In this document: positions 8,209-8,760 of the stretch, piece after piece
Numbering within the stretch: position 1 is the first letter of the stretch
Layout: every line of letters starts with the position of its first letter
Virus record (IMG/VR): IMGVR_UViG_2740892369_000045
Source of the DNA: a virus
Lineage: Duplodnaviria > Heunggongvirae > Uroviricota > Caudoviricetes
Reading direction: 5' to 3' (one strand)
DNA length: 15,280 bases
Translations under genes and position numbers: made by a program
The notes under the pieces: generated by a model
The model's database searches: none
Seen by the model: the letters and a program-made list of their open reading frames with translations, nothing else
Told to the model about the DNA's origin: nothing

Positions 8209-8760
8209 ATGATGATATTACAACCCATGGGGAGAAAAGGCCGTGCACCCGCTCATGTTCGCGCATGGACACCTGAAGAAGATGCGCTGCTGATTGCGCT
8301 TTATCCATCCACCCCGGTTAAGGATATTGCTGTCAGGATAAAAAGAAGTTTCTGGGGTGTACATAACCGGATTGTTTTATTACGCGGTACTTACCCGGAG
8401 TTGCTCAAATGCAAACGCCTCAGATTTAAACCTGATGAAGATAAATTTATCCGAAAAAATGCCAGAACAATGACCGGTAAGCAAATAGGAGAATATCTGG
8501 GGCGAGACCGGGATTCTGTCCACAATCGGGCGCGATATATTGGCGTAAGCATGAAAAAATACGGAGAGTTGCTGCCCTTCACCCGCATACCTGACGATGA
8601 TGTTCGTCTTATTCGTGAATTACGGGATGCTGAATCACCACGGCGTCTTACCTTTAGGGAAATCGGCGAGAAATTTGAATTATCCGAGGGCACGGTGAGT
8701 TTTATTTATCACCGTCGTCGGACTGCCGAAGATGTTGTATTACGGGAATTAATGCCATGA
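8209..8760 (+). CDS. Putative DNA-binding protein built from three tandem ~53-aa HTH-like (Myb/SANT-like) repeats
   Basis: 183 aa. Internal repeats at about residues 20-55, 73-111 and 127-169 share the pattern x-P-(D/E)-(D/E)-D ... I-(A/G) ... V-H-N-R (WTPEEDALLIALY...FWGVHNRI; FKPDEDKFIRKN...RDSVHNRARYI; IPDDDVRLIREL...VSFIYHRR). Confidence 0.55.
   Translation: MMILQPMGRKGRAPAHVRAWTPEEDALLIALYPSTPVKDIAVRIKRSFWGVHNRIVLLRGTYPELLKCKRLRFKPDEDKFIRKNARTMTGKQIGEYLGRDRDSVHNRARYIGVSMKKYGELLPFTRIPDDDVRLIRELRDAESPRRLTFREIGEKFELSEGTVSFIYHRRRTAEDVVLRELMP

What the first reader, a model, noticed from the sequence alone, without database searches (positions are those of the whole stretch)
8209..8760. Protein composed of three tandem HTH-like (Myb/SANT-like) repeats
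The 183-aa product contains three repeats of about 53 aa sharing P-(D/E)-(D/E)-D near the start and V-H-N-R near the end. The first (WTPEEDALLIALY...WGVHNR) resembles the W-T-x-E-E-D signature of Myb/SANT DNA-binding repeats. A triple-repeat DNA-binding protein is unusual in a phage early operon and could recognise an extended or repeated DNA site, for example as an anti-repressor or host regulator mimic.
Basis: seen in the sequence. Interest (0 to 1): 0.6.

Follow-up and report, generated by a model that had tools for sequence, protein, structure and literature searches.

The report
Phage D5-like triple helix-turn-helix DNA-binding protein
This gene in the early operon of a Mu-like E. coli prophage encodes a small basic protein made of three helix-turn-helix DNA-binding modules, a relative of the long-known phage T5 D5 DNA-binding protein, so it is an ordinary member of a common phage family whose exact job is untested.

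Summary
The ORF (8209-8760, +, 183 aa) is real and under purifying selection (dN/dS 0.12-0.30). It lies in the early transcript of a Mu-like prophage of E. coli O157. The repeat observation mostly holds. Modules R1 (aa 18-60) and R2 (73-114) are a true tandem duplication (hhalign 98.9%, E 1e-17). R3 (127-171) is a diverged HTH in the same register (92%, E 7e-7). R3 resembles sigma-70 region 4 and has Y-H-R-R, not V-H-N-R. AlphaFold2 (pLDDT 85) gives three three-helix bundles. The best single-module fold matches are the GcrA DNA-binding domain and Myb/SANT domains. The family profile hits c-Myb R2R3 at E 4e-6. The protein belongs to PHROG 323, "transcriptional regulator, D5-like" (E 6e-58). All three modules align with phage T5 D5 (96.6%), a DNA-binding protein needed for T5 replication and late transcription. 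Homologues occupy early operons of Mu-like and P2-like prophages. Two-module versions serve as DNA-binding domains of phage HNH endonucleases. The architecture is therefore common in phages, not unusual. Nothing supports an anti-repressor or host-mimic role. Verdict: new member of a known kind; DNA binding very likely, biological role inferred only.

The parts
8197..8202 (+). Shine-Dalgarno-like AGGGGG, 6 nt before the ATG. The upstream gene's TGA stop is at 8203-8205, so the genes are tightly packed.
   Evidence: Read directly from the sequence. No sigma-70-like promoter lies near the gene.
8209..8760 (+). Whole ORF, 183 aa, pI 10.2: a D5-like triple-HTH DNA-binding protein (RefSeq WP_000973023.1).
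   Evidence: PHROG 323 at E 6.3e-58. dN/dS 0.12-0.30. pI.
8209..8259 (+). N-terminal arm, aa 1-17 (MMILQPMGRKGRAPAHV). Basic, predicted disordered, but conserved (PMG.PGK.P.H).
   Evidence: pLDDT 44-63. Conservation.
8260..8388 (+). Module R1, aa 18-60: Myb/SANT/GcrA-type three-helix HTH. W20, E24, D25, L28, L31, R46, R54 and L58 are invariant.
8389..8424 (+). Basic linker 1, aa 61-72. It is the most variable segment.
8425..8550 (+). Module R2, aa 73-114: second Myb-like HTH, a tandem duplicate of R1.
   Evidence: hhalign R1-R2 98.9%, E 1.3e-17. The c-Myb R2R3 alignment spans R1+R2.
8551..8586 (+). Linker 2, aa 115-126, with the conserved K117-x-G119 (KCGD/KYGE) motif.
8587..8721 (+). Module R3, aa 127-171: a diverged HTH of the sigma-70 region 4 type. 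Its helices 1-2 (DxDVxLIRxLRD...LTFxEIGEKF) are the most conserved part of the protein.
   Evidence: Sigma70_r4 23.3 bits. hhalign R2-R3 92%. Helix entropies.
8722..8757 (+). Acidic C-terminal helix, aa 172-183.
8757..9068 (+). Downstream gene (103 aa, PHROG 6925, function unknown). Its ATG overlaps the stop codon (ATGA), which suggests translational coupling.
10768..10791 (+). Context: a strong intrinsic terminator after the gemA-like gene and before mor. It marks the end of the early transcript that contains the ORF.
   Evidence: Gene map.

Best explanation
The ORF encodes a member of the phage 'D5-like' family (PHROG 323). It is a small, basic, beads-on-a-string DNA-binding protein.

Its parts are two Myb/SANT/GcrA-type three-helix HTH modules (R1 and R2, an ancient tandem duplication), a third diverged sigma-70-region-4-type HTH (R3) and a short acidic C-terminal helix.

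It has no promoter of its own. It is made as part of the long early transcript of a Mu-like prophage after induction or infection.

Inferred mechanism: each module lays its third helix in the major groove. Conserved arginines (R46, R54, R99, R170) and the basic linkers hold the phosphate backbone. The exposed, highly variable helix-3 positions give little or lineage-specific sequence preference.

By homology with T5 D5, it binds duplex DNA and modulates phage DNA replication and/or the early-to-late switch in transcription. It is an accessory factor, not a core one: Mu itself lacks it, and about 4% of complete E. coli genomes carry it.

Shown here: the gene is real, the three-module fold, family membership, and the early-operon context. 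Inferred: DNA binding by this protein, its binding mode and its biological role.
For: Family membership:
- PHROG 323 'transcriptional regulator, D5-like' at E 6.3e-58. T5 D5 itself scores 1.2e-71 against the same family.
- hhalign of the family alignment against T5 D5 gives 96.6%, E 6e-10, over 151 columns that cover all three modules (aa 17-171 vs D5 71-232).
- The GenBank note for T5 D5 reads 'DNA-binding protein; required for DNA replication and late transcription; also is involved in shutoff of expression of ...' (note truncated in the tool output). The source is McCorquodale 1979, cited in PMC12630848.
- A 2026 preprint (10.64898/2026.07.11.737809) reports that D5 triggers a type IX retron, is predicted by AlphaFold3 to bind the retron's msdDNA through an HTH motif, and is mildly toxic.

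Fold and homology:
- AlphaFold2 pLDDT 85 with 3 x 3 helices.
- c-Myb R2R3 at E 4e-6.
- R3 and D5 module 3 both hit sigma-70 region 4 models.

Properties and selection:
- pI 10.2, with basic R1, R2 and linkers.
- Purifying selection, dN/dS 0.12-0.30.

Context:
- Always in early or replication modules. In Mu-like prophages it follows the Gp11/Gp12 homologues. In P2/186-like prophages it directly abuts the replication endonuclease gpA. In T5 it sits between ligase and the DnaB-like helicase.
- The same two-module unit is the N-terminal domain of an HNH endonuclease in mycobacteriophage Thibault. This is independent support for a DNA-targeting role.
Against: - No experiment exists on this protein or on any temperate-phage member.
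- Identity to T5 D5 is low (about 24% over the aligned columns). D5 also has an extra 70-residue N-terminal region and a C-terminal tail that are absent here, so function may not transfer.
- All Pfam hits of the window protein are below the curated cut-offs.
- The most conserved surface is helices 1-2 of R3, not a recognition helix. That could mean a protein partner rather than DNA is the key ligand.
- No conserved neighbouring gene or DNA site was found that would indicate a target.
Confidence: 0.7

Rival explanations
1. It is a sequence-specific transcription factor of the Myb R2R3 kind. The three recognition helices together read a defined, extended operator of about 12-16 bp in the phage or host genome, and the protein represses or activates particular promoters during lytic growth.
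For: - The profile match to c-Myb R2R3 is in register over two modules.
- NCBI and PHROG label relatives as transcriptional regulators.
- Helix-3 exposed positions differ between lineages, as expected if each phage lineage has its own operator.
- In array protein P0033, helices 1-2 are nearly invariant while the helix-3 region diversifies (pN/pS 0.64 vs 0.20). This suggests that these positions carry specificity.
Against: - No candidate operator was identified, and no repeated DNA motif lies in or next to the gene.
- The same family sits in unrelated phage backbones (Mu-like, P2-like, T5) with no shared neighbour or intergenic region.
- From general knowledge of the older literature, not checked here, the characterised relative D5 is described as a general duplex-DNA binder.
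Confidence: 0.2
2. It targets RNA polymerase or sigma. The highly conserved, non-basic R3 module resembles sigma-70 region 4. Together with the C-terminal helix it would dock on RNA polymerase (for example the beta-flap) or on a sigma or anti-sigma partner. R1-R2 would tether the complex to DNA, as a GcrA-like cofactor does.
For: - R3 hits Sigma70_r4 and Sigma70_r4_2. D5 module 3 scores above the Sigma70_r4_2 cut-off (28.6 vs 25.7 bits).
- R3 helices 1-2 are the most conserved part (entropy about 0.9 bits), and R3 plus the tail is not basic.
- The best single-module fold match is GcrA, a sigma-70 cofactor (PMC4647560, PMC5887438; titles and abstracts).
- T5 D5 mutants affect late transcription.
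Against: - The protein has no counterpart of GcrA's sigma-binding domain.
- Foldseek matches to whole sigma factors are not significant (E about 0.1, TM about 0.18).
- No experimental link between D5-like proteins and RNA polymerase was found. The T5 RNA polymerase-binding proteins described are different genes (PMC7472727).
Confidence: 0.07
3. It is a relic or selfish DNA-targeting domain: the orphaned DNA-binding half of a homing endonuclease that lost its nuclease and has no function for the phage.
For: - The two-module unit is fused to HNH nucleases in mycobacteriophages, where it sits inside a split methylase gene.
- There are weak PHROG hits to HNH endonuclease families over aa 10-48.
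- BFVD neighbours include phage 'endonuclease' proteins.
Against: - The 178-187 aa architecture is conserved full-length across E. coli, Salmonella, Citrobacter and Hafnia prophages, with 31 invariant residues.
- dN/dS is 0.12-0.30.
- The position is fixed and translationally coupled in two phage types.
Confidence: 0.03

Closest known systems
Bacteriophage T5 gene D5 protein (AAS77164.1; PHROG 323 'transcriptional regulator, D5-like')
   Same: - Homologous over all three modules in the same order: Myb-like, Myb-like, sigma-r4-like (hhalign 96.6%, E 6e-10).
- Same PHROG.
- Early gene located among replication functions.
   Different: - D5 is 255 aa, with an extra N-terminal region of about 70 aa and an Ala/Lys-rich tail.
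- Only about 24% identity.
- D5 belongs to a virulent phage and is required for replication and late transcription. The window gene is an accessory gene of temperate Mu-like and P2-like prophages and has not been tested.
Eukaryotic Myb R2R3 DNA-binding domain (c-Myb 1H88/1MSE; WER 6KKS)
   Same: - Tandem units of about 50 aa, each a three-helix HTH beginning W-T-x-E-E-D.
- Profile match over two consecutive repeats in register (E 4e-6).
   Different: - Only the first of the three spaced tryptophans is kept.
- Linkers between modules are longer.
- The Pfam Myb score of this protein is below the cut-off.
- The third module is not Myb-like.
Caulobacter GcrA N-terminal DNA-binding domain (5YIU)
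   Different: - No Pfam GcrA hit was listed for the window protein, and the family profile did not recover GcrA chains among solved structures.
- GcrA has one DNA-binding domain plus a sigma-70-binding domain. The window protein has three HTH modules and no such domain.
Sulfolobus Cbp2 CRISPR-repeat-binding protein (2LVS)
   Different: Two modules rather than three, archaeal, and a different biological context.
Sigma-70 region 4 type HTH
   Same: R3 matches Sigma70_r4 (23.3 bits). D5 module 3 matches Sigma70_r4_2 above its cut-off.
   Different: No sigma regions 2 or 3. The window protein's score is just below the cut-off (24.1).

Membership tests
PHROG 323 (T5 D5-like DNA-binding / transcriptional regulator) | Significant match to the family profile | tested here: met
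   E 6.3e-58, 197.8 bits, aa 2-182 on profile positions 80-256 of 319. T5 D5 scores 1.2e-71 on the same profile.
PHROG 323 (T5 D5-like DNA-binding / transcriptional regulator) | Same module order as T5 D5 (Myb-like, Myb-like, sigma-r4-like HTH) | tested here: met
   hhalign 96.6%, E 6e-10, aa 17-171 vs D5 71-232. The window protein lacks D5's N-terminal 70 aa.
PHROG 323 (T5 D5-like DNA-binding / transcriptional regulator) | Binds duplex DNA; needed for replication and late transcription | not testable with these tools
   Known only for T5 D5 (GenBank note; reference).
Myb/SANT repeat (Pfam PF00249) | Score at or above Pfam's gathering threshold | tested here: not met
   16.9 bits vs 24.4, and only aa 19-31 are matched. 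19 of 25 relatives match at E<=0.01, best 6.3e-9.
Myb/SANT repeat (Pfam PF00249) | Unit of about 50 aa forming three helices with an HTH | tested here: met
Myb/SANT repeat (Pfam PF00249) | Three regularly spaced tryptophans or aromatics forming the core | tested here: not met
   Only the first is kept (W20, invariant; F73, which is W in the P2-like clade). From the c-Myb alignment and the family alignment, the second and third positions appear to be aliphatic (my reading of the alignments, not a computed result).
GcrA family (Pfam PF07750) | GcrA DNA-binding domain plus a C-terminal sigma-70-interacting domain | tested here: not met
Sigma-70 family | Regions 2 and 4 present; region 4 above the cut-off | tested here: not met
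   Sigma70_r4 23.3 bits vs 24.1. TIGR02937 18.9 vs 42.9, over aa 142-169 only. No region 2.
AsnC/Lrp family (the name many databases give this protein) | AsnC-type HTH above the cut-off plus a C-terminal ligand-binding (RAM) domain | tested here: not met
   HTH_AsnC-type 21.5 bits vs 27. No AsnC ligand-binding-domain family appears among the Pfam hits. The 'AsnC family protein' label is a misnomer.

The most novel reading that the evidence does not exclude
D5-like multi-HTH proteins may be modular DNA readers whose exposed recognition-helix residues are the evolving, specificity-carrying positions.

In the 183-aa prophage proteins, helix 3 is the most variable helix of every module. In long metagenomic arrays such as P0033, the scaffold helices are nearly identical while the helix-3 region diversifies, a pattern reminiscent of TALE repeats.

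On this reading the prophage protein either reads a lineage-specific extended DNA site, or is in an arms race with host immune sensors that detect D5-like HTH proteins, as the type IX retron does for T5 D5.
Probability: 0.12. Interest if true: 0.6.

Novelty: new member of a known kind. Interest (0 to 1): 0.3.

Why it matters
Practical value: the result corrects a database misnomer ('AsnC family protein') and links an unstudied accessory gene of Mu-like and P2-like prophages, including those of E. coli O157, to T5 D5. T5 D5 is an old genetically defined DNA-binding protein and was recently reported to trigger a type IX retron.

If the temperate-phage members behave like D5, they are candidates for two roles:
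- modulators of prophage replication and transcription timing;
- proteins sensed by host defence systems.

Neither role would be surprising to a phage specialist. The wider family of long repeat arrays is the more intriguing lead.

Tried and rejected
- T5.108, a helicase annotated with a SANT/Myb InterPro domain, shows no similarity to the family (hhalign 0.2%).
- The DRT4 paper (PMC12783706) concerns T5 ORF55, not D5, and is irrelevant.
- A literature search for Mu-like prophage plus Myb found no papers. The original 1979 D5 paper is not held.
- Rfam found no RNA family anywhere in the window.
- There are no DNA-level direct or inverted repeats in or around the gene, apart from one 12-nt pair that is probably chance.
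- No promoter-like site lies near the gene.
- No gene neighbour is shared between the Mu-like and P2-like contexts.
- The co-occurrence with DNA methyltransferases was noted but judged too anecdotal to build on. It was seen in P2-like loci, C130_2 and Thibault.
- The minus-strand ORFs inside the gene (8391-8693 and others) were not pursued. RefSeq annotates only the plus frame, which is under purifying selection.

Full report
**Context**

The window is the left (early) part of a Mu-like prophage. It is 100% identical to prophages in many E. coli O157 and other STEC genomes. The 552-nt gene occurs in 229 of 5426 complete E. coli genomes.

Gene order in window coordinates:
- repressor-like gene (534-1247, minus strand)
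- ner-like HTH (1286-1534)
- MuA transposase (1536-3626)
- MuB ATPase (3698-4630)
- small ORFs
- Gam (5983-6513)
- three conserved genes of unknown function; in the syntenic Salmonella loci the two just upstream of the target carry the Gp11_C and Phage_Mu_Gp12 domains
- the target (8209-8760)
- six small unknowns
- gemA/gp16 (10254-10763)
- a strong intrinsic terminator (10768-10791)
- mor (10833-11258)
- lysis genes

The target has a Shine-Dalgarno-like AGGGGG 6 nt upstream. It starts 3 nt after the previous stop, and its stop overlaps the next ATG (ATGA). No promoter-like site lies nearby. It is therefore made from the long early transcript. Rfam finds nothing in the window.

**Checking the observation**

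Three units of about 53-54 aa are present. P-(D/E)-(D/E)-D occurs in all three. V-H-N-R occurs only in units 1 and 2; unit 3 has Y-H-R-R-R.

On the single sequence, R1-R2 and R2-R3 local alignments exceed shuffles (4/1000 and 14/1000). R1-R3 does not (95/1000).

I collected 25 and then 45 full-length relatives at 42-98% identity, from E. coli, Salmonella, Citrobacter, Hafnia and metagenomes. Profile-profile comparison of the three segments gave:
- R1-R2: 98.9%, E 1.3e-17
- R2-R3: 92%, E 7e-7, in register, with a 5-residue insertion between helices 1 and 2
- R1-R3: 78%, over helices 2-3 only

HMMs of R1 and R2 recognise every unit of long metagenomic repeat arrays. The R3 HMM recognises none. 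So R1 and R2 are a true ancient tandem duplication; no nucleotide repeat survives. R3 is a third HTH module that is much more diverged, or possibly of a different HTH subclass.

AlphaFold2 with the family alignment gives pLDDT 85 and exactly three three-helix bundles plus a C-terminal helix. The pTM of 0.54 fits flexibly linked domains.

The gene is under purifying selection: dN/dS is 0.12-0.30 among E. coli alleles with dS 0.06-0.69.

**What it is**

Pfam gives only sub-threshold HTH hits for the window protein:
- Sigma70_r4 on R3: 23.3 bits vs a cut-off of 24.1
- HTH_AsnC-type: 21.5 vs 27
- Myb_DNA-binding on aa 19-31: 16.9 vs 24.4

Among relatives, 19 of 25 hit Myb_DNA-binding and 18 of 25 hit Sigma70_r4.

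The family profile searched against PDB sequences finds c-Myb R2R3 at E 4e-6, with one alignment spanning R1 and R2 in register. It also finds B-Myb and the two-HTH CRISPR-repeat-binding protein Cbp2 (2LVS, E 6e-4).

Tc3, LuxR-type and resolvase HTHs follow. Foldseek with the whole model is uninformative.

The decisive link is PHROG 323, 'transcriptional regulator, D5-like', at E 6.3e-58. I fetched phage T5 and confirmed three things:
- Its D5 protein (255 aa) belongs to the same PHROG (E 1.2e-71).
- It aligns with the family across all three modules (hhalign 96.6%, E 6e-10; aa 17-171 vs D5 71-232; W20 aligns with D5 W74).
- Its third module hits Sigma70_r4_2 above the cut-off.

The primary reference is McCorquodale et al. 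1979, cited in PMC12630848.

A July 2026 preprint (10.64898/2026.07.11.737809) reports that T5 D5 triggers a type IX retron. AlphaFold3 predicts that D5 binds the retron's msdDNA through an HTH motif, and mass photometry shows that D5 partly disassembles the retron complex. D5 is also mildly toxic on its own. One escape phage carries a stop at W74, among other D5 mutations.

**Distribution**

Full-length three-module homologues occur in two unrelated temperate-phage backbones, always in the early lytic operon:
- In Mu-like prophages of E. coli and Salmonella they follow the Gp11/Gp12 homologues.
- In P2/186-like prophages of Salmonella and Citrobacter, including Citrobacter phage Shae_phiSM, they lie directly upstream of the replication endonuclease gpA. 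In the Salmonella and Citrobacter loci they overlap it by 4 nt. A Dam-type methyltransferase usually lies a few genes upstream.

Phage Mu itself gave no hit.

Two-module versions of about 100 aa occur in the P1-like phage D6, in phage C130_2, and in Klebsiella and Vibrio phages. In mycobacteriophage Thibault the two Myb-like modules form the N-terminus of an HNH endonuclease that sits between annotated DNA methylase genes.

BFVD holds 19 phage proteins with E<=1e-3 to the model. These include several from jumbo phage Goslar and 'endonuclease' proteins. At weaker E-values (0.002-0.009) the list also includes 'Myb-like', 'GcrA' and 'D5 protein' entries.

An exhaustive profile search finds 12,956 proteins at E<=1e-3. 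Many of them are 300-1300 aa metagenomic proteins with 3-13 tandem copies of the R1/R2 unit, and some are fused to helicases.

The architecture is therefore common, not unusual.

**How it probably works**

The protein is basic overall (pI 10.2). R1, R2, the N-terminal arm and both linkers are basic. R3 plus the C-terminal helix are neutral to acidic.

Within each module the structural positions and a few arginines (R46, R54, R99, R170) are invariant or nearly so. The exposed positions of the third helix are the most variable in the protein, at about 3 bits. Helices 1-2 of R3 are the most conserved, at about 0.9 bits.

I infer that all three modules contact DNA through helix 3, with backbone contacts conserved and base contacts either weak or lineage-specific. 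I also infer that the protein acts, like D5, as an early duplex-DNA-binding factor that modulates replication and/or the temporal transcription switch.

A defined-operator regulator remains a serious rival. An RNA polymerase-directed cofactor using the sigma-r4-like R3 is a minor rival. An orphaned homing-endonuclease DNA-binding domain is unlikely, given the strong purifying selection and conserved length.

**Novelty and verdict**

RefSeq already calls this protein 'DNA-binding protein' and calls close relatives 'SANT/Myb-like DNA-binding domain-containing protein'. Other records call it 'AsnC family protein', which the membership test shows to be a misnomer. PHROGs already groups it with T5 D5.

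The finding is a correct reading of sequence features, but it describes a new member of a known kind. Interest is modest (0.3).

The most interesting by-product lies outside the window. In long repeat arrays such as P0033, the scaffold helices are nearly invariant and the recognition-helix region diversifies (pN/pS 0.64 vs 0.20). That pattern would deserve its own study.

Noticed in passing
L019:2686-5109 (protein P0033, ENA metagenome contig): An 807-aa protein with an N-terminal ResIII/Helicase_C helicase followed by nine tandem 46-47-aa Myb-like repeats. Helices 1-2 are almost identical between repeats (WTQEEDxxLxQNYLTKxLKEIAEHLGR). The loop plus recognition helix is hypervariable: pN/pS 0.64 vs 0.20, with synonymous divergence of 0.45-0.6. 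This is a TALE-like pattern that suggests a modular DNA reader.
   Followed up: partly
Proteins P0034, P0036, P0041, P0043, P0080 and others: A very large set of metagenomic and MAG proteins (300-1300 aa) consists of 3-13 tandem copies of the same R1/R2-type unit. The profile search finds 12,956 proteins at E<=1e-3. Database names are inconsistent (Lrp, CsgD, SANT/Myb-like). Their function is unknown.
   Followed up: partly
L003:2004-2621 (Mycobacterium phage Thibault gp103): An HNH endonuclease whose N-terminal half is two D5/Myb-like HTH modules. It lies between genes that are both annotated 'DNA methylase' (gp102, gp105), which looks like a homing endonuclease splitting a methylase gene.
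   Followed up: partly
window 8209-8259 (aa 1-17): The N-terminal arm M-(M)-I-L-x-P-M-G-x-P-G-K-x-P-A-H-V is well conserved across the family although predicted disordered (pLDDT 44-63). It might be a minor-groove arm or a partner-binding motif.
   Followed up: no
L007-L012 (Salmonella and Citrobacter P2/186-like prophages); L015 (phage C130_2): In P2-like prophages the homologue overlaps the start of the replication endonuclease gene gpA by 4 nt, and a Dam-type methyltransferase (MethyltransfD12) lies a few genes upstream. C130_2 also has two methyltransferases nearby. This could be a link between GcrA-like HTH modules and DNA methylation, or coincidence.
   Followed up: no
RefSeq/GenBank names for the same gene: Near-identical alleles are variously named 'DNA-binding protein', 'AsnC family protein', 'hypothetical protein' and 'SANT/Myb-like DNA-binding domain-containing protein'. 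The AsnC label fails the family's defining features.
   Followed up: yes
L004:7040-7987 and L006:2624-3700 (Salmonella Mu-like prophages): The accessory stretch downstream of the target varies between Mu-like prophages. Some Salmonella relatives carry a dATP/dGTP pyrophosphohydrolase-like gene (PF04447) that is absent from the window.
   Followed up: no
window 10768-10791: A strong intrinsic terminator (9-bp stem, T-run) lies between the gemA-like gene and mor. This matches the Mu arrangement of an early-transcript terminator before the middle operon.
   Followed up: no
window 534-1247 (minus strand): The repressor-like ORF is 237 aa from its first GTG, but RefSeq annotates only 194 aa (585 nt) as 'hypothetical protein'. 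It matches PHROG 3037 'transcriptional repressor' over aa 43-235, which supports the shorter start.
   Followed up: no
L014:3974-4291 (phage D6 orf90); L015:3983-4294 (phage C130_2 gp16): Short versions of the family, about 100 aa with two modules (R2+R3-like), exist in other temperate phages. Module number is therefore variable: 2, 3, possibly 4 in T5 D5, and many in the arrays.
   Followed up: partly
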